A stretch of 64,000 nt of DNA from an uncultured Clostridia bacterium (GCA_947628515.1 CANRAG010000002.1:458-64457), one strand, 5' to 3'; positions 15,038 to 19,985 are shown, counted from the stretch's first letter. Program-made: numbers and translations. Notes: generated from the sequence alone by a model not told the origin.

Positions 15038-15985
15038 TTATATTTCTATATTATCTATAACCTTCTTCAAAATGCTTGCGCTGCGCTGAAGCTTATATAT
15101 TTCCTCATCCGTAAGCTTAACCGGCACCTTGCCGCGAACGCCCTCCGGGCCTATAAGCGTGGGAACGCTCAGGCACACGTCGCTTATTCCGTATTCGCCG
15201 TGGAGCATAGAGGTTATTGTAGAAATCGAGTTATACGCCGAAAGAAGTATTGAGCACAGCCGGCATACCGCGACTGACACCGCGTAGAACGTCGCGCCCT
15301 TGTTTTCGATAATTCTTCCGCCGGATTCATGTATGTAATTCGTCATATTTTCCCGATCAAGCGGCTCGATATTCTTTCCGAACGACTTCATAACGTCCGT
15401 ATACTCCTCAAGAGTACAGCCTGAAATCTTCGCTATTGACCACGGCACGAACGAGGAGTCGCCATGCTCGCCGAAAACATACGCGTGTATGTTTCGCTGC
15501 GCAATCTCGTAATGCTCGGACAGCCCGTAGCGCAGCCGCGCCGTGTCAAGCAGAGTGCCCGAACCCATAATCTGATTTTCCGGCAGCCCCGAAAGCTTTG
15601 TGAAAACGTATGTCATTATGTCTACCGGATTGCTGACTATGATATAGAGCGCGTCCGGAGCCGCCTTTACAATATCCGGCGTTATGCTTTTAAGCACATC
15701 CACGTTTGTCTGCGTAAGCTCTATTCTCGTCTGCCCCGGCTTCCGCGCGATACCGGATGTGATTATAACAATATCTGAGCCTTCCGCGTCCTTATAGTCG
15801 CCCGCCTTAATGGATATAGGGTCGCGGAATGACGCGCCCTGAACAATATCCATCGCCTCGCCGATGACCTTCTGCTTATTGATATCAATCATCACAATTT
15901 CTGATGCTATAGCTTCGTTAGATAACGTATAAGCTATTGTGGAGCCGACGCTGCCCGCGCCGATAATAGTAATTTTACTTGCCAT
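15038..15985 (-). CDS. ldh: L-lactate dehydrogenase (NAD-dependent)
   Basis: KITIIGAGSVGSTIAY (Rossmann fold), DIVIITSGIARKPGQTR, SNPVDIMT and GEHGDSSFVPWS (catalytic His block). ATG 15985 (MASKITIIG) follows AGGAGA. The track start at 15994 is 3 codons upstream. Confidence 0.9.
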   Translation of the reverse strand: MASKITIIGAGSVGSTIAYTLSNEAIASEIVMIDINKQKVIGEAMDIVQGASFRDPISIKAGDYKDAEGSDIVIITSGIARKPGQTRIELTQTNVDVLKSITPDIVKAAPDALYIIVSNPVDIMTYVFTKLSGLPENQIMGSGTLLDTARLRYGLSEHYEIAQRNIHAYVFGEHGDSSFVPWSIAKISGCTLEEYTDVMKSFGKNIEPLDRENMTNYIHESGGRIIENKGATFYAVSVAVCRLCSILLSAYNSISTITSMLHGEYGISDVCLSVPTLIGPEGVRGKVPVKLTDEEIYKLQRSASILKKVIDNIEI

Positions 15986-16014
15986 ATATACCATTCTCCT
16001 GTTATTTGTTATAT

Positions 16015-16038
16015 TTCACCTATCCGACTAAGTTAAAG
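16015..16038. repeat. Left arm (core 24 nt) of an imperfect inverted repeat: TTCACCTATCCGACTAAGTTAAAG
   Basis: The reverse complement of 19019-19042 is TTCACCTGTCCGACTAAGTTAAAG, a 23/24 match. Similarity continues inward after a 32- vs 51-nt variable spacer. A is CGGCATAACAACGCGCAATAATCGCTTCACCGCCGGATAGTA (about 16079-16120). B (reverse complement) is CGGCATAATAACGCGCAGATCACTTCATAGCCGAACAGTA (about 18930-18967). The core lies in the ldh 5' leader, about 30-53 nt upstream of the ldh ATG. Confidence 0.85.
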
Positions 16039-16126
16039 CATGCCGCGCGTCCAAATTTGACAATTTCTCAGCCAAACGGCATAACAACGCGCAATAATCG
16101 CTTCACCGCCGGATAGTATTTATAAT

Positions 16127-16144
16127 TTGTCAAATTTTTAACAA
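16127..16144. promoter_or_regulatory. Candidate Rex (redox-sensing repressor) operator
   Basis: TTGTCAAATTTTTAACAA matches the clostridial Rex consensus TTGTTAA-N4-TTAACAA at 13/14 half-site positions and is a palindrome. It lies 142 nt upstream of the ldh ATG and overlaps AT-rich -10/-35-like hexamers on the minus strand (TTGACA / TATAAA). Confidence 0.45.
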
Positions 16145-16396
16145 TCGAAGTCCGCACAGCCCCATTCCGGTACGCGCAAAGAAACCGAAGGCGACCGCCC
16201 CCCGTTTATCCTTATATATATTAGCACATTGATATGAATTTAACAAGTTTTTTTTATCTGTTGGAAATAATTTTTAGCATTGGAACAGTTTTTACAAAAA
16301 TTCTATCGGAAAATTGTATATTTTGCGCCAATACAAGGTTACTTGCGTTAGTTAATGCTTACTTGTGGGTTTTAGCGATATATTTTTTAAAAAACC

Positions 16397-16425
16397 TTGT
16401 TTTTGCGCTAATATTGTGTTATAAT
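16397..16425 (+). promoter_or_regulatory. Sigma-A-type promoter with extended -10 (TTGTTT-N14-TGTTATAAT)
   Basis: -35 TTGTTT at 16397-16402 and extended -10 TGTTATAAT at 16417-16425, with 17-nt hexamer spacing. It points into a short unit that ends at the terminator 16508-16546. Confidence 0.4.
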
Positions 16426-16431
16426 CAAAAA

Positions 16432-16546
16432 GAGAGGTACACGAAAGATGAAATATAAAAGTGCGATAGCGGGAGATATAGAAGCAGCACGGGAAAAGGC
16501 GAATTTAGACGCGGCAAAGCTCAACCGGTTTTGCCGCGTCTTTTTT
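16432..16546 (+). ncRNA. Orphan ~115-nt transcription unit (sRNA or short-ORF mRNA), function unknown
   Basis: It is bounded by the promoter above and an intrinsic terminator. It contains an RBS-like AGAGAGG plus ATG 16448, but that ORF (track 16448..16741) reads straight through the terminator and into the convergent gene. I recognise no riboswitch or known sRNA family. Confidence 0.3.
16508..16546 (+). terminator. Rho-independent terminator
   Basis: GACGCGGCAAA (16508-16518), an 11-nt loop, TTTGCCGCGTC (16530-16540), then TTTTTT (16541-16546). Confidence 0.65.
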
Positions 16547-16571
16547 GTTTGGGCAAGATCCGCAGCATGCG

Positions 16572-16606
16572 AAAAAAAAAACGGCGCCGGGGGATTTTCG
16601 GCGCCG
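16572..16606 (-). terminator. Rho-independent terminator for the 629-aa gene / small-ORF transcript
   Basis: CGGCGCCG (16582-16589), a 9-nt loop, CGGCGCCG (16599-16606). The plus-strand A10 run at 16572-16581 gives a U10 tail on the minus-strand RNA. It is convergent with the plus-strand terminator 25 nt away. Confidence 0.7.
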
Positions 16607-16690
16607 CGTGTATTACAAGCTTATAATTTAATTATACTATCCGCAAGGACAGCGCGGGGATTTTGGATGCGTTGTCCCGAATGGATCTGT

Positions 16691-16855
16691 TTAGAATGTT
16701 ATTGTAACCTTTACAGCATCCGAACCTGCAGCAGCTATTAAACCGTCTACATAGGAATTAGCCTCTCCAACGTCTGTGCTCTCGACACCTGATGCTGTTA
16801 TAACATTCTCCATCTCAAACATGGAGATATTCATAATCGGATTTTCAAATTTCAT
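16691..16855 (-). CDS. Small acidic ORF P1 (54 aa), unknown function; paralogue of the ORF at 31850-32023
   Basis: Not in the track (<60 aa); I translated it by hand as MKFENPIMNISMFEMENVITASGVESTDVGEANSYVDGLIAAAGSDAVKVTITF. AGGAGG sits 9 nt upstream of the ATG. The ORF starts 19 nt after the stop of the 629-aa gene and is followed by the terminator at 16572-16606. Its N-terminal motif and C-terminal I-T-aromatic end are shared with P2. Confidence 0.5.
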   Translation of the reverse strand: MKFENPIMNISMFEMENVITASGVESTDVGEANSYVDGLIAAAGSDAVKVTITF

Positions 16856-16874
16856 AATTATCTACCTCCTGTTA

Positions 16875-18764
16875 TTATTCCAACGTTACCTTTACTGATG
16901 TAACATCCTCTACGTTTCCTATCACAACGTATACCAAGACCGAACCATTGCCTGTCGCGATAGTGGGAAGGCTTACCTCACCCTTCTTGTCACCCTGACT
17001 GGTACTTGTTGCCGTAGCTACAATCTTTGTATATGAAGCATCCGCGCTTATACCGTTGACTGTTGCCTTCCAGACAGACGCATGGTCGCCATTTGTTGTG
17101 AAGTCCCTATCATGTTCAGCCGATACCGGTTCGGGCGTCACAACCGGAGGCTCATATTCACCGGTCTTTTCTATCATAACATAGTCGATGGTGTCCGTTG
17201 CGTCATTAGTGCCTTGTCCGCATATTTTTACGGATGTGCTATCTTCCGTTACGGTAAACGTCAACTCGTGAACTTTATCATCGTTACCGGTTGTTTTCGC
17301 AACATCCTCGTCGTTTATAACAATCTTCTCGCCGCGATGATTAGTTCCGCTGCCGGCCTTGGCCACAACGCTTATATACGCCTTGTACTCGCCCTTATTC
17401 AACGTTACGGTACCAATCGGTGTGTGTGCGCTATCACCGCCATATACTGCCGCTGTACCATTTGAATATGCCGTGTTTGTTCCGTTTTCTTTATCACAGT
17501 CATTGAAGTAAACAATGTTTTCGGCAGCGGTATTATATTCAACGGTATACTCGTTTGAATCCGCCAATGTAACCTGCTGTCCGTATGTGCTTGCGTCTGA
17601 TACATACCACTGATTATCAACTTTCAGATATTTCGGGTAATAATATGTCATCTGCTCGCCAACGTATTTATCCTCTAAGGTTCTTGTTGCGGAATCCGCG
17701 TTTAAATCGGTTTCGTTATCCTTATAGTTAACCTTTATGTTTGATACCTTATTATATTCTGTCTTGGTGAAATACAAACTGATTTCATTCTCGTCCGCAG
17801 TTACCGACGTTTTATTTTTCTGATTTTCACTGTCGTACTTATATACAGTTTTTACGTCCTCGCGTTTTTCAAAGTCCTGTGTATACTTGCTGTCAACAGT
17901 ATAACCTTCTCCTGCCGTTACTTTTTCGATGACTGAATCTATTAACTGATCCTCGCAATAACGCTTAATAGTTACATCACGTGCCGACTGACCTTCTATA
18001 TTGGTTATCTTAAGGTCATCAAATAAGCAATATCTATCTCCATTATCATAATTCGACCCAACCTCGAAAGATGTAACAGCACCTGCATCAGCGACTAAAT
18101 CACCTGTATACGAACTGTTGCCAACTTTAGCGGAGATCTTCTTTGTTGCATAATCCAATGTAATATCAAAATTAACTTTTTTAGCCCAATCCGCGCCATT
18201 GTTAGTATTTGAACCGTTAAAGTCACTTATCGCTATTCCAAGCGAATTTTCGGAAAAACTTGACTTATATGTATCCGCTCTTAAACTTACAAGTTTAGTT
18301 GAATCGGAATAAATATAAAAATGTGTAAATTTGCTACTCAACGGTCCCCATGCCATGTTGAAGTTTACATTAACTTTGTCTTTGGTTGTATCAATCTGTA
18401 ACGCAGCGGGAATACTAACCGTTCCTGTGGCATTTGGCAAAAGCAAATGATTTAGTCCGGCAGAATGCTTATTAGGATCTTTACCAAGCTTTATCTCATC
18501 TGTGGATATGTTATTTGAAACTGCAAGACCGCCTGTGAAATTACCGTCACCGTCTTGATATGTATATCCGTCAATTTCTGCAGACTGCAAATCCACAGTA
18601 TTGGCAAACGGAGATCCGGAATCGGTATCGCCAAAGTCTATACCAACAATCTGACCGTATTTGCTGGTTAGAGCTTCCGCATAACTTGTAACTGCAAGTC
18701 CCGTGAACACAGAACCCGCGACTGCCAACGCCGAAACGGCGCTGACCAACTTTTTAATGTTCAT
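16875..18764 (-). CDS. Secreted adhesin-like protein: signal peptide, jelly-roll (LamG/CBM-like) domain, MucBP-like repeats, CBM-like domain, short Pro-rich linker, ~85-aa C-terminal domain
   Basis: 629 aa. Signal peptide MNIKKLVSAVSALAVAGSVFTGLAVTSYAEA. ...GDRYCLFDDLKITNIE resembles the end of a lectin-fold domain. Repeats such as VTIKRYCEDQLI... and IKVNYKDNETDL... follow. The C-terminus ...ASVWKATVNG...GNGSVLVYVVIGNVEDVTSVKVTLE loosely resembles the C-terminal domain of the 602/625-aa proteins. The gene is visibly more AT-rich than its flanks. Confidence 0.7.
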   Translation of the reverse strand: MNIKKLVSAVSALAVAGSVFTGLAVTSYAEALTSKYGQIVGIDFGDTDSGSPFANTVDLQSAEIDGYTYQDGDGNFTGGLAVSNNISTDEIKLGKDPNKHSAGLNHLLLPNATGTVSIPAALQIDTTKDKVNVNFNMAWGPLSSKFTHFYIYSDSTKLVSLRADTYKSSFSENSLGIAISDFNGSNTNNGADWAKKVNFDITLDYATKKISAKVGNSSYTGDLVADAGAVTSFEVGSNYDNGDRYCLFDDLKITNIEGQSARDVTIKRYCEDQLIDSVIEKVTAGEGYTVDSKYTQDFEKREDVKTVYKYDSENQKNKTSVTADENEISLYFTKTEYNKVSNIKVNYKDNETDLNADSATRTLEDKYVGEQMTYYYPKYLKVDNQWYVSDASTYGQQVTLADSNEYTVEYNTAAENIVYFNDCDKENGTNTAYSNGTAAVYGGDSAHTPIGTVTLNKGEYKAYISVVAKAGSGTNHRGEKIVINDEDVAKTTGNDDKVHELTFTVTEDSTSVKICGQGTNDATDTIDYVMIEKTGEYEPPVVTPEPVSAEHDRDFTTNGDHASVWKATVNGISADASYTKIVATATSTSQGDKKGEVSLPTIATGNGSVLVYVVIGNVEDVTSVKVTLE

Positions 18765-18850
18765 ATGTTTTCTCTCCTCTCATTATAATGAGTAAATTTA
18801 AACATCTCAAACCGGACGAGAATCCCCGCTCGTCCGACAGATATATTTAT

Positions 18851-18879
18851 AATATATAAATAACGCCAAAGCGCGTCAA
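18851..18879 (-). promoter_or_regulatory. Sigma-A-type promoter of the 629-aa gene (TTGACG-N17-TATATT)
   Basis: Minus-strand reading: -35 TTGACG (18879-18874), a 17-nt spacer, -10 TATATT (18856-18851). The leader contains an 8-bp hairpin, CGGACGAG/CTCGTCCG (18813-18836). Confidence 0.4.
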
Positions 18880-19018
18880 TCCCCTCCGCGCTCCGCGGTA
18901 TTTATCACTCATTAATACAGTTACTGTTCGGCTATGAAGTGATCTGCGCGTTATTATGCCGGTTGCTTTAGCAATTAACAAAACCGGACGGGCTTATTCG
19001 CAAACACTGTTTGGCAGA

Positions 19019-19042
19019 CTTTAACTTAGTCGGACAGGTGAA
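19019..19042. repeat. Right arm (core 24 nt) of the inverted repeat: CTTTAACTTAGTCGGACAGGTGAA
   Basis: See 16015-16038. It lies about 140 nt upstream of the -35 of the 629-aa gene. On the plus strand it is followed by the hairpin ATATCCGCCG...CGGCGGATAT (19053-19084). Confidence 0.85.
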
Positions 19043-19232
19043 CTGTAACTTAATATCCGCCGCCAATCCCTTTACGGCGGATATTACCACACTTTTATTA
19101 TACCCCCAATCCCATGGACATGTCAATTAGTCTTTATGCACAAAATGGAATGGAGTTTTTGTATACTTCTGACAAAATCCCCATTCCTGTGTATCTTAGG
19201 TATGTGCACATGAAACATGCGTTACCCACGCC

Positions 19233-19985
19233 TTATTTAATTACCAGCTCCACCGGACAATGGTCCGAGCCGAAAACATCGTCGTGTATATCCGCGCTTA
19301 TAAGTCTGTGCTTTAGCGCGTCAGATACTATAAAATAGTCGATACGCCAGCCCGCGTTCTTTTCGCGTGCCTTAAACATATACGACCACCACGAATATCT
19401 GCCGGTCGCGTCGGGGTGGAAATATCTGAACGTGTCGATAAATCCGCTGTCCAAAAGCTCGGTCATTTTGCCGCGTTCCTCGTCGGTAAAGCCCGCGTTG
19501 CGCCTGTTGGTTTTGGGGTTTTTAAGGTCAATTTCATTATGCGCCACATTCAGGTCGCCGCACATGATTACGTGCTTTGTTCGGTCAAGCTTTTTCAGAT
19601 ACTCCCGCATCGCGTCCTCCCATACCATTCGGTAATCCAGCCGCAAAAGCTCGCGCTTTGAATTGGGAGTGTAGCAGGTTACGACATAGAAATCGTCAAA
19701 TTCCGCTGTTATAACCCTGCCTTCATGGTCGTGTTCCTCAATACCGATACCGAACGAGACGGAAATCGGCTCGGTTCTTGTAAACAACGCCGTTCCCGAA
19801 TATCCCTTCTTTTCAGCCGAGTTCCAATACTGCCTATACCCCGGCAGGTCAAGCTCGATCTGCCCCTCTTGCAGCTTTGTTTCCTGCAGGCAGAACACGT
19901 CCGCGTCCGCCCTGTTAAAATAGTCCATAAAGCCCTTTGTCACGCAGGCTCTTAATCCGTTTACATTCCATGATATAAGCTTCAC
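19233..19985 (-). CDS. xth: Exodeoxyribonuclease III (AP endonuclease, EEP fold)
   Basis: 250 aa with [26 protein letters not shown] and GSDHCPV. The GTG start overlaps the stop of the upstream RNase H gene (GTGA). Confidence 0.9.

What the first reader, a model, noticed from the sequence alone, without database searches (positions are those of the whole stretch)
16015..19042. Imperfect inverted repeat (23/24-nt core plus a ~45-nt second block) bracketing a 3-kb AT-rich, self-contained cassette
TTCACCTATCCGACTAAGTTAAAG (16015-16038) recurs inverted at 19019-19042 with one mismatch. After a variable spacer (32 vs 51 nt), a second block is also shared: CGGCATAA[C/T]AACGCGCA...CTTCA..GCCG.A.AGTA. 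The repeats enclose a secreted adhesin-like gene that is visibly more AT-rich than the ~55-60% GC neighbours. They also enclose small ORF P1, a promoter, two convergent terminators and an orphan short transcription unit. The left arm sits inside the ldh leader, between the Rex-like box and the RBS. Three readings are possible. The repeats could be terminal repeats of an inserted, non-autonomous cassette. They could mark an invertible segment, although no recombinase is in the window. Or they could be two copies of a ~100-130-nt cis-regulatory/RNA element in opposite orientation: one leads into ldh, and the other is followed by a hairpin at 19053-19084.
Basis: partly seen in the sequence, partly recalled or inferred. 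Interest (0 to 1): 0.6.

Follow-up and report, generated by a model that had tools for sequence, protein, structure and literature searches.

The report
Two copies of a dispersed MITE
The "inverted repeat" is two separate insertions of a 113-bp non-coding jumping element (a MITE) that occurs about 45-60 times in this gut Clostridia genome, so it does not mark the ends of a 3-kb cassette and is an ordinary kind of feature.

Summary
The repeat is real: the 24-mer occurs twice in the window and none is expected by chance. The arms extend to whole elements, at 16008-16120 (minus strand, ldh leader) and 18920-19049 (plus strand).

- It has 16-bp imperfect terminal inverted repeats, GTTACTGTTCAGCTAT...ATAGGTGAACTGTAAC.
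- It has its own 8-bp AT-rich target-site duplication.
- The genome (a Candidatus Ornithomonoglobus MAG) holds 40 near-full copies and about 59 hits in all.

The termini match those next to IS66-family transposase genes in two same-genus genomes, and those of the published ISBst12-group element ISDge4, which also makes 8-bp duplications. No such transposase is in this assembly.

Three comparisons show insertion.
- Ldh leaders of 80 relatives lack the element. The rebuilt empty site matches their layout of Rex box, about 8 nt, then ribosome-binding site.
- Nine same-genus species lack the copy upstream of sigG.
- One same-species strain lacks the right copy but keeps the 3-kb segment.

The cassette and invertible-switch readings are therefore not supported.

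Copies favour 5' leaders in the sense orientation (26 against 7) and fold better on that strand. This leaves a small chance that they also act as RNA.

This is a new member of a known kind, of low to moderate interest.

The parts
16008..16120 (-). Left MITE copy (113 bp), in the ldh 5' leader and in the same direction as ldh.
   Evidence: It aligns to consensus positions 3-113 at 85% identity (C2:16465-16575 = window 16008-16118). nhmmer gives E = 4e-34. The boundary is uncertain by 2-3 nt because the flanks are A/T repeats.
16121..16128 (-). 5'-side target-site duplication of the left copy (AAATTATA on the minus strand). It overlaps the last 2 nt of the Rex-type box.
   Evidence: Read directly. 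It matches the 3'-side copy AAATAACA at 6 of 8 positions. If the boundary is shifted by 3 nt the pair reads ACAAATTA/ACAAATAA, 7 of 8.
16000..16007 (-). 3'-side target-site duplication of the left copy (AAATAACA on the minus strand), immediately before the ldh ribosome-binding site AGGAG.
   Evidence: Read directly. The rebuilt empty site, TTGTTAAAAATTTGACAAATAACAGGAGAATGG, matches the relative L023, TTGTTAAAAAAAAGACAATAAAAAGGAGAATGG.
16127..16144 (-). Rex-type operator TTGTTAAAAATTTGACAA of ldh, now separated from the ribosome-binding site by the MITE.
   Evidence: The same box sits about 8 nt before GGAG in the ldh leaders of relatives L021-L026 and L040. The Rex consensus itself is recalled from memory.
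15038..15985 (-). ldh gene (L-lactate dehydrogenase, 315 aa counted from the ATG that follows the ribosome-binding site).
   Evidence: Pfam Ldh_1_N scores 1e-42 and Ldh_1_C 1.7e-28. The identical protein is found on 8 same-species contigs.
18920..19049 (+). Right MITE copy (130 bp = 111 bp aligning to the 113-bp consensus plus a 19-nt extra module). It is antisense to the 629-aa gene and lies in that gene's upstream region.
   Evidence: nhmmer gives E = 5e-32. The termini read GTTACTGTTCGGCTAT...ACAGGTGAACTGTAAC. It is absent from strain contig L109.
18912..18919 (+). Left target-site duplication of the right copy (TTAATACA).
   Evidence: It matches TTAATATC at 19050-19057 at 6 of 8 positions.
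19050..19057 (+). Right target-site duplication of the right copy (TTAATATC). It also forms the base of the hairpin at 19053-19084.
   Evidence: L109 reads TTAATACA-ACCGTAGC-TTAACACC at this site.
18994..19012 (+). 19-nt extra module (TTATTCGCAAACACTGTTT) found in a minority subfamily of copies.
   Evidence: It forms gap columns in alignments A1 and A2. The copies at C58:7578 and C5:20934 also have it.
16875..18764 (-). Gene for a 629-aa secreted protein. It is AT-rich, and its central part differs between strains.
   Evidence: There are no Pfam or NCBIfam hits. Against the 630-aa allele in L109, the first 31 residues are identical and the last ~110 are conserved, but identity is only 30% overall. 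At the DNA level only 18919-18673 and 17138-16508 align.
16691..16855 (-).
   Evidence: It has five or more paralogues in the genome, one of them again next to a paralogue of the 629-aa protein, on contig C166.
16448..16516 (+).
   Evidence: MKYKSAIAGDIEAAREKANLDAA is identical to the start of the intact 326-aa gene in strain L109. L109 carries about 1 kb more DNA at this point.
19053..19084 (.). Hairpin between the xth gene and the right MITE. It was present before the insertion.
   Evidence: It is present in L109, which lacks the MITE. A perfect TTGACA-18-TATAAT promoter-like site on the minus strand lies just upstream, at 19126-19097.

Best explanation
The two arms are two independent insertions of one MITE family, a 113-bp non-coding derivative of an IS66-family (ISBst12-group) insertion sequence.

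The element has 16-bp imperfect terminal inverted repeats, GTTACTGTTCAGCTAT...ATAGGTGAACTGTAAC. A DDE transposase supplied in trans moves it into AT-rich 8-bp targets, and each target is duplicated on insertion.

In the lineage of this Candidatus Ornithomonoglobus species it multiplied to about 45-60 copies. Most landed in the AT-rich stretch between a promoter or operator and the ribosome-binding site.
- The left copy landed between the Rex operator and the ribosome-binding site of ldh, and so is transcribed as part of the ldh leader.
- The right copy landed, in the opposite orientation, upstream of a strain-variable surface-protein gene.

The 3 kb between them is ordinary chromosomal DNA that happens to lie between two insertions.

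Shown here: the termini, the duplications, the copy number, the absence of the element at the matching sites of relatives, absence of the right copy in one strain, and matching termini next to IS66 transposase genes in the same genus.

Inferred: the transposition mechanism, and that the family is now stranded, because no matching transposase is in the assembly and most copies are fixed across strains.
For: 1. The element is dispersed.
- The 24-mer has 22 copies with at most 3 mismatches in the genome, and 0 for the reversed control.
- nhmmer finds 40 near-full copies and 59 hits at E <= 1e-3.

2. It has terminal repeats and duplications.
- The 16-bp termini are complementary at 14 of 16 positions.
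- The flanking 8-mers are identical in 5 of 31 scored copies and differ at one position in 12 more.
- Mean identity of the flanking 8-mers is 5.77 of 8. Shuffled pairings give 3.24 +/- 0.23, with a maximum of 4.06 in 5000 shuffles.

3. Relatives have empty sites.
- None of 80 metagenomic ldh loci carries the element, and their leaders read Rex box, about 8 nt, then GGAG, like the rebuilt site.
- The sigE-sigG spacer of 9 same-genus species lacks the copy present in this genome.

4. Strains of this species differ at the right copy.
- Contig L109 is 98-99% identical in the flanks but lacks the right copy. It keeps both duplicated 8-mers and an 8-nt remnant of the 3' terminus, and it still has the 630-aa gene and ldh.

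5. The parent family can be named.
- GTTACAGTTCAGGTAT lies 315 nt upstream of a PF03050 (IS66) transposase ORF in same-genus genome G010.
- GTAACTATTCAGTACA lies 19 nt past the end of another such ORF in G002.
- ISDge4 (ISBst12 group) has termini GTGACTACTCAGCA and GTAACTGCTCAGCA and an 8-bp direct repeat (PMC12898284).

6. The expansion is lineage-specific.
- This genome has at least 21 strong BLAST hits, and other species of the genus have 0-2.
- A sister subfamily has 2-11 copies in only 4 of 26 same-genus genomes.

7. It is not a riboswitch.
- It has no Rfam match.
- The downstream genes are unrelated in function.
Against: - No IS66-family transposase and no transposase flanked by these termini is in this 224-contig MAG, so current mobility is unproven.
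- The copies upstream of divIVA, pyrE, sigG and ldh are present in every sampled strain, so there is no sign of recent jumping.
- The L109 site is not a clean empty site. It holds an 8-nt remnant and 4 substitutions within 16 nt, which suggests deletion or excision rather than a site that was never occupied.
- The left copy's duplication matches at only 6-7 of 8 positions, and its boundary is uncertain by 2-3 nt.
- Similarity to the IS66 elements is limited to the 14-16 terminal bases.
- The sense-orientation bias (26 against 7, p = 0.0013) is not what random insertion of an element with symmetric ends predicts. It needs an added explanation, either selection or function.
Confidence: 0.9

Rival explanations
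1. Exapted RNA module. The element began as a MITE, but in the sense orientation it now acts as a structured 5'-leader RNA. It would be a long hairpin ending about 25 nt before the start codon. It could stabilise the mRNA, be cut by a double-strand-specific RNase, or be bound by a common factor, giving about 25 unrelated genes a shared post-transcriptional input.
For: - 26 copies lie within 80 nt upstream of a start codon in the sense orientation, against 7 antisense (p = 0.0013). The median distance to the start codon is 25 nt.
- The sense strand folds better than the antisense strand in 35 of 40 copies: mean -33.8 against -28.6 kcal/mol, Wilcoxon p = 5e-6.
- Many stem positions are G-U pairs, which would be A-C mismatches on the other strand.
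- The ACTGCGCG/CGCGCAGT stem is kept in diverged same-genus subfamilies even though the apical sequence differs.
Against: - All copies descend from one master copy, so the G-U pattern and the strand asymmetry count as a single observation.
- Covariation barely exceeds the shuffle controls: 3-11 of 500 shuffles reach the observed score.
- AT-rich targets occur naturally just upstream of ribosome-binding sites, which explains the position of the copies.
- Orientation bias can arise if antisense insertions are removed by selection, with no positive function needed.
- The sigG copy sits in a conserved hairpin between GTACATAG and the ribosome-binding site, possibly inside a promoter rather than a leader.
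- No transcript data could be obtained.
Confidence: 0.12
2. Composite or cassette boundary. The two inverted copies act together as the ends of a non-autonomous 3-kb mobile cassette that carries the surface-protein gene.
For: - The two copies are in inverted orientation and bracket an AT-rich segment.
- The content of that segment differs between strains.
Against: - Each copy has its own 8-bp duplication, and there is no shared duplication outside the pair (and direct reading).
- L109 lacks the right copy yet retains the gene pair and the left copy.
- The variable stretch ends inside the gene, at about 18673 and 17138, not at the repeats.
- The conserved signal peptide and C-terminal domain point to allele exchange by homologous recombination.
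Confidence: 0.02
3. Invertible promoter or gene segment. Recombination between the inverted copies flips the 3-kb segment as a phase switch.
For: Two inverted copies that are about 85% identical, 2.8 kb apart, could in principle recombine.
Against: - The repeat is a dispersed element with about 45-60 copies, not a dedicated recombination site.
- Contigs L109 and L111 from other samples are colinear with the window across the segment.
I did not check this independently.
- Reads could not be inspected.
Confidence: 0.02

Closest known systems
ISBst12 group of the IS66 family, for example ISDge4 of Deinococcus geothermalis (PMC12898284)
   Same: - The termini are of the same type: GTAACTGCTCAGCA and GTGACTACTCAGCA in ISDge4, GTTACTGTTCAGCT here, 11 of 14 identical.
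- The termini are imperfect in both.
- Both make an 8-bp target duplication.
- IS66-family transposase genes in two same-genus genomes carry near-identical termini.
   Different: - This element is 113 bp and has no transposase gene.
- Similarity to the full insertion sequences is confined to the terminal 14-16 bases.
- This assembly has no IS66 transposase.
Bacterial MITEs that expanded within one lineage, for example MITECca01 of Cardinium (IS982-derived, 169 copies; PMC9769881) and MITEPsy1 of Pseudomonas syringae (100 nt, 18-nt termini, 4-nt duplication; PMC3189936)
   Same: - Small and non-coding.
- Has terminal inverted repeats and target-site duplications.
- Mostly intergenic.
- Lineage-restricted expansion.
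- Depends on a transposase supplied in trans.
   Different: - The parent family is different (IS66/ISBst12), and the duplication is 8 bp.
- The host is an uncultured gut member of the Clostridia.
- Mobilisation has not been demonstrated.
- The parent is absent from the assembly.
Co-transcribed hairpin repeats such as Correia elements (Neisseria), RUP and BOX (Streptococcus pneumoniae) and ERIC (enterobacteria). This comparison is from memory and was not checked here.
   Same: - About 100-150 bp long.
- Inserted in leaders and intergenic regions.
- Transcribed with neighbouring genes and fold into long RNA hairpins.
- Some carry promoter-like hexamers.
   Different: - They differ in sequence, termini and duplication length (Correia and RUP duplicate TA).
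- Effects on mRNA processing or stability have been shown for those families and are untested for this one.
Riboswitches and other cis-regulatory leader RNAs
   Same: - About 115 nt long and structured.
- Lies in the sense orientation just upstream of the ribosome-binding site.
   Different: - It has no Rfam match.
- The downstream genes are functionally unrelated.
- Copies are 82-99% identical to the consensus.
- It is absent from the matching leaders of related species.

Membership tests
MITE (non-autonomous derivative of a DDE transposon) | Short, with no coding capacity | tested here: met
   The element is 105-132 bp (two copies with inserts reach about 155-160 bp). Its only open frame is a 12-codon ATG...TGA with no ribosome-binding site.
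MITE (non-autonomous derivative of a DDE transposon) | Terminal inverted repeats | tested here: met
   GTTACTGTTCAGCTAT and ATAGGTGAACTGTAAC are complementary at 14 of 16 positions and are conserved across copies.
MITE (non-autonomous derivative of a DDE transposon) | Target-site duplication of fixed length flanking each copy | tested here: met
   The duplication is 8 bp. Of 31 scored copies, 5 are perfect and 12 match at 7 of 8. Mean identity is 5.77 of 8 against a null of 3.24 +/- 0.23.
MITE (non-autonomous derivative of a DDE transposon) | Many dispersed copies in one genome | tested here: met
   There are 40 near-full copies and 59 hits at E <= 1e-3, spread over more than 40 contigs.
MITE (non-autonomous derivative of a DDE transposon) | Presence or absence at matching sites, with breakpoints at the element ends | tested here: met
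   The ldh leaders of 80 relatives lack it. The sigE-sigG spacer of 9 same-genus species lacks it. The right copy is missing from strain L109, which keeps an 8-nt remnant between the two duplicated 8-mers.
MITE (non-autonomous derivative of a DDE transposon) | A matching autonomous element with the same termini in the same genome | tested here: not met
   The own assembly has none. One is present in same-genus genomes G010 and G002. The assembly is a 224-contig MAG, so absence is not conclusive.
MITE (non-autonomous derivative of a DDE transposon) | Mobilisation by the transposase in trans | not testable with these tools
   This needs a transposition assay.
IS66 family, ISBst12 group (as parent) | Termini of the GTAACTGCTCAGC type | tested here: met
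   11 of 14 bases are identical to ISDge4. 14 of 16 are identical to the terminus next to the G010 IS66 transposase gene.
IS66 family, ISBst12 group (as parent) | 8-bp target duplication | tested here: met
   ISDge4 makes the 8-bp direct repeat CCTCGATG.
IS66 family, ISBst12 group (as parent) | A single PF03050 transposase ORF between such termini | tested here: inconclusive
   In G010 the terminus lies 315 nt before a PF03050 ORF of at least 493 aa, with no room for separate tnpA and tnpB genes. In G002 the terminus lies 19 nt after the ORF end. Both contigs end inside the element, so neither shows both ends.
Riboswitch or dedicated cis-regulatory RNA | Downstream genes share a pathway or ligand | tested here: not met
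   The downstream genes include valS, topA, divIVA, ldh, era, glgP, sigG, nadK, pyrE, relA, a reverse transcriptase and glycosyltransferases.
Riboswitch or dedicated cis-regulatory RNA | Conserved at the matching leader in related species | tested here: not met
   It is absent from 80 ldh loci and 9 sigG loci of relatives.
Riboswitch or dedicated cis-regulatory RNA | Match to a curated RNA family, or covariation beyond shared ancestry | tested here: inconclusive
   It has no Rfam match even at E <= 10. In the proposed structures 86-88% of cells are paired, but covariation is only slightly above the shuffles.
Invertible DNA switch | Both orientations present in the population | tested here: inconclusive
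   Two strain contigs are colinear with the window. Read-level data were unavailable.
Invertible DNA switch | Inverted repeats dedicated to the locus, with a nearby recombinase | tested here: not met
   The repeat is a dispersed element with about 45-60 copies.
Composite transposon or cassette | One duplication flanking the whole unit, which is present or absent as a whole | tested here: not met
   Each copy has its own duplication. L109 keeps the segment without the right copy.

The most novel reading that the evidence does not exclude
The MITE family has been taken over by the host. In the sense orientation it would serve as a shared structured leader-RNA module on about 25 housekeeping and sporulation genes. 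In addition or instead, its conserved antisense-strand promoter-like site (TTGGCA-N17-CATAAT) would fire outward through the 5' terminus. Either way, one burst of a selfish element would have rewired the expression of many unrelated genes.
Probability: 0.12. Interest if true: 0.55.

Novelty: new member of a known kind. Interest (0 to 1): 0.3.

Why it matters
- For annotation, it removes a false lead. The region is neither a cassette nor a phase switch, and the same repeat will produce "inverted repeat" and "conserved leader motif" calls all over this genome. It also breaks assemblies: many strain contigs end inside copies.
- For biology, it documents a MITE that appears not to have been described, derived from the little-studied ISBst12 group of the IS66 family, in an uncultured gut Clostridia genus (Candidatus Ornithomonoglobus).
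- The insertions sit in sensitive places: between the Rex operator and the ribosome-binding site of ldh, and inside a conserved hairpin just upstream of sigG.
- The sense-orientation bias makes the family a reasonable test case for how MITE insertions in leaders are tolerated or put to use.

Tried and rejected
- **Rfam.** A permissive scan (E <= 10) of 15500-19600 found nothing on either arm.
- **Riboswitch or leader-regulon idea.** Rejected because the downstream genes are unrelated and the element is absent from the leaders of relatives.
- **IS6/IS26 parent.** I considered this because IS6/IS26 also makes 8-bp duplications and has a CTGTT core in its termini (PMC6807381). I rejected it because the match to GGTTCTGTTGCAAA is weak, the GG start is missing, no PF13610 transposase is in the genome, and the IS66/ISBst12 match is far better.
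- **Autonomous copy in the own genome.** Pairs of termini 0.6-6 kb apart enclose only ordinary genes. Solo termini are degenerate remnants.
- **Exact-pattern scans of all GTDB genomes.** The 22-mer gave 0 hits. A looser 20-mer gave 3, all from Ca. Ornithomonoglobus.
- **RNAalifold on the gappy alignment.** It returned only one helix, so I wrote two explicit structures and counted pairs instead. Both fit equally well, at about 86-88% paired, and neither is favoured.
- **GC skew, to separate a replication-strand bias from a gene-strand bias.** 29 of 45 copies lie on the G-rich strand, a weaker association than with gene direction, but the test is confounded.
- **Earlier-findings lookup by sequence.** Nothing was found.

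Full report
**1. Observation**

The 24-mer at 16015-16038 recurs inverted at 19019-19042 with one mismatch. That is two matches in the window against none expected in 100 shuffles. The repeat finder extends the arms to 37 nt.

I read the left arm on the minus strand and the right arm on the plus strand. The two then align over their whole length with 76% mean column identity. The enclosed DNA is 36-45% GC against about 50-55% outside.

**2. The element is a dispersed repeat**

- A search of the whole assembly (2.9 Mb, 224 contigs) found 22 copies of the 24-mer with at most 3 mismatches, and none for the reversed control.
- A profile built from these copies found 40 near-full-length copies and 59 hits at E <= 1e-3.
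- Rfam has no match for either arm, even at E <= 10.
- The genes downstream of the copies are unrelated. They include valS, topA, divIVA, ldh, era, a MraY/WecA-like gene, glgP, sigG, nadK, pyrE, relA, a reverse transcriptase and glycosyltransferases.
- This mix of genes rules out a riboswitch-type regulon.

**3. Anatomy: a MITE**

- The consensus is 113 bp.
- Its ends, GTTACTGTTCAGCTAT and ATAGGTGAACTGTAAC, are 16-bp imperfect inverted repeats.
- The eight bases on either side of a copy are direct repeats. They are identical in 5 of 31 scored copies (for example AAATAATA, ATAAAGTA, AATATTAC, AAATAAAC) and differ at one position in 12 more.
- Mean identity of these flanking 8-mers is 5.77 of 8. 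Shuffled pairings give 3.24 +/- 0.23, and none of 5000 shuffles exceeds 4.06.
- The targets are 79% A+T.
- The right window copy (18920-19049) is flanked by TTAATACA and TTAATATC.
- The left copy (16008-16120, minus strand) is flanked by AAATTATA and AAATAACA. If its boundary is moved by 3 nt the pair reads ACAAATTA and ACAAATAA.
- Each arm is therefore a complete element with its own duplication, which argues against the two acting as the ends of one larger unit.

**4. Evidence that the copies are insertions**

(a) The ldh site in relatives.
- Eighty metagenomic ldh loci (69-75% LDH identity) were fetched with their flanks. None contains the element.
- Their leaders read Rex-type box, about 8 nt, then GGAG. 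L023, for example, has TTGTTAAAAAAAAGACAATAAAAAGGAGAATGG.
- Removing the element and one duplicated 8-mer from the window gives TTGTTAAAAATTTGACAAATAACAGGAGAATGG.
- The element therefore landed between the Rex operator and the ribosome-binding site.

(b) The sigG site in the genus.
- The sigE-sigG spacer of nine same-genus species is short and lacks the element.
- In this genome a 114-bp copy sits in the loop of a small conserved hairpin, GGGAG-TATAT-CTCCC, between GTACATAG and CCATACCTAAGGAGG.

(c) Other strains of this species.
- Looking up the exact LDH protein returned eight contigs from other samples, 98-99.8% identical in DNA.
- The ldh-leader copy is present in every contig that reaches it.
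- In L109 the right copy is missing. The site reads cattaataca-ACCGTAGC-ttaacacc, which is both duplicated 8-mers with an 8-nt remnant of the 3' terminus between them.
- L109 still carries the large secreted-protein gene, the small ORF and ldh in the same order and orientation.
- The copies upstream of divIVA, pyrE and sigG are present in all 22 strain contigs examined, and many of those contigs end inside a copy.
- Most copies are therefore old and fixed. One is polymorphic, apparently through loss.

**5. Parent family**

- The own assembly has no transposase between pairs of termini. It has no IS66-family (PF03050) hit and no IS6-family (PF13610) hit.
- In same-genus genome G010, a PF03050 ORF of at least 493 aa is preceded, 315 nt upstream, by GTTACAGTTCAGGTAT.
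- In G002, another PF03050 ORF is followed, 19 nt past its end, by GTAACTATTCAGTACA.
- By my estimate, a 16-mer within 2 mismatches of either terminus at such a spot has a chance probability of about 5e-4.
- The published ISBst12-group element ISDge4 has termini GTGACTACTCAGCA and GTAACTGCTCAGCA, a single transposase gene and an 8-bp direct repeat (PMC12898284).
- The MITE is therefore best assigned to the ISBst12 group of the IS66 family.

**6. Distribution**

- Exact-pattern scans of all GTDB species genomes found the conserved 3' end only in Candidatus Ornithomonoglobus MAGs.
- With the consensus as query, this genome has at least 21 strong hits and other same-genus species have 0-2 weak ones.
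- A sister subfamily shares the termini and the ACTGCGCG/CGCGCAGT stem but has a different apical part. It has 2-11 copies in 4 of 26 same-genus genomes.
- The family thus expanded sharply in the lineage of this species.

**7. The 3-kb "cassette"**

- *Surface-protein gene.* Between strains, the 629-aa and 630-aa proteins share an identical signal peptide and a conserved C-terminal region of about 110 residues, but identity is only 30% overall. At the DNA level the unalignable stretch runs from about 18672 to 17139, inside the gene. The AT-rich segment is a strain-variable surface-protein allele that is probably exchanged by recombination in its conserved ends. It is not a unit bounded by the MITEs.
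That gene is intact (326 aa) in L109, and about 1 kb of it has been deleted here.

**8. What remains unexplained**

- *Orientation.* 26 copies lie within 80 nt upstream of a start codon in the sense orientation, against 7 antisense (p = 0.0013). Between co-directional genes the count is 21 against 7 (p = 0.0125). The median distance to the start codon is 25 nt.
- *Strand asymmetry.* The sense strand folds better in 35 of 40 copies (p = 5e-6). Many stem positions are G-U pairs.
- *Why these are weak evidence.* The AT-rich target preference explains the position of the copies. The strand asymmetry is inherited from one master copy. Covariation is barely above the controls.
- *Promoter-like site.* A promoter-like site on the antisense strand, TTGGCA-N17-CATAAT, is kept at one place in the element. 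21 of 40 copies score at least 9 of 12 on that strand. In the right copy it points toward the 629-aa gene (18981-18953).
- *My view.* Loss of harmful antisense insertions by selection is the simplest explanation. I give about 12% to real co-option as an RNA or promoter module.

**9. Verdict**

The cassette and inversion readings are rejected. The "two copies of one element" reading is right, but the element is an IS66/ISBst12-derived MITE, a new member of a known kind.

Noticed in passing
G000 contig C4:1966-2095 (minus strand); relatives L141-L149: A MITE copy sits in the loop of a small conserved hairpin between the motif GTACATAG and CCATACCTAAGGAGG, directly upstream of sigG. The motif may be a forespore-type -35 element. 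Nine same-genus species lack the insertion, and all 9 same-species contigs have it. If GTACATAG and CATACCTA form a promoter, the insertion splits it.
   Followed up: partly
window 16448-16516 (+) and L109:3559-4539: The small ORF and its promoter are the stump of a 326-aa PDDEXK_2-family (Rpn-like) gene that is intact in another strain. About 1 kb is deleted here, and the alignment blocks overlap by 9 nt at the junction, which suggests a microhomology deletion.
   Followed up: partly
window 16875-18764 (-) against L109:1204-3096: The 629-aa secreted protein has an identical signal peptide and a conserved C-terminal region of about 110 residues, but its centre is almost unrelated in a strain whose flanks are 98-99% identical. 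This looks like a hypervariable surface-protein allele. The protein has no Pfam or NCBIfam domain.
   Followed up: partly
window 16691-16855 (-); G000 contigs C166, C3, C32, C61, C139: The 54-aa ORF (MKFENPIMNISMFEMENVITASG...) belongs to a family of at least six small paralogues. One of them again follows a paralogue of the 629-aa protein, on C166.
   Followed up: no
G000 contig C145:2253-2364 (+) and the ORF that follows: The most diverged MITE-like copy lies 20 nt upstream of a 369-aa reverse transcriptase. Its best hits are generic RT models, UG17 and Drt3a-like, all below the curated cut-offs. The position resembles that of a retron or defence-RT non-coding RNA, but this may be coincidence.
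   Followed up: partly
L023:5769-5875: A different MITE sits in the ldh leader of a related gut bacterium. It has the same type of termini (GTAACAGTTCAGCC...GGCTGAACTGTTAC) and a perfect 8-bp duplication, TAGGAATC. So ISBst12-type MITEs have entered ldh leaders independently.
   Followed up: no
element positions about 36-63 on the antisense strand; in the window 18981-18953 (-) and 16061-16089 (+): A promoter-like site, TTGGCA-N17-CATAAT, is kept at one place in the element, where 21 of 40 copies score at least 9 of 12. It reads outward through the 5' terminus. The left window copy has TTGACA-N17-CATAAC.
   Followed up: partly
G000 contig C6:43050-43079: A 30-bp palindrome, GTTACTATTTGGCTATAGGCGAATAGTAAC, consists of two termini back to back. 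It is probably what remains after the interior of a copy was deleted.
   Followed up: no
L111:1-281: This low-coverage contig follows the window up to the middle of the right MITE and then continues into unrelated AT-rich sequence. This could be an assembly chimera at the repeat or a rearrangement in that strain.
   Followed up: no
window 16215-16245 (-): The likely ldh promoter, TTGTTA-N17-TAATAT, and its surroundings are conserved with relative L023 (ACTTGTTAAAT...CAATGTG.TAA.ATA). The ldh leader is therefore about 220 nt long and includes the MITE.
   Followed up: no
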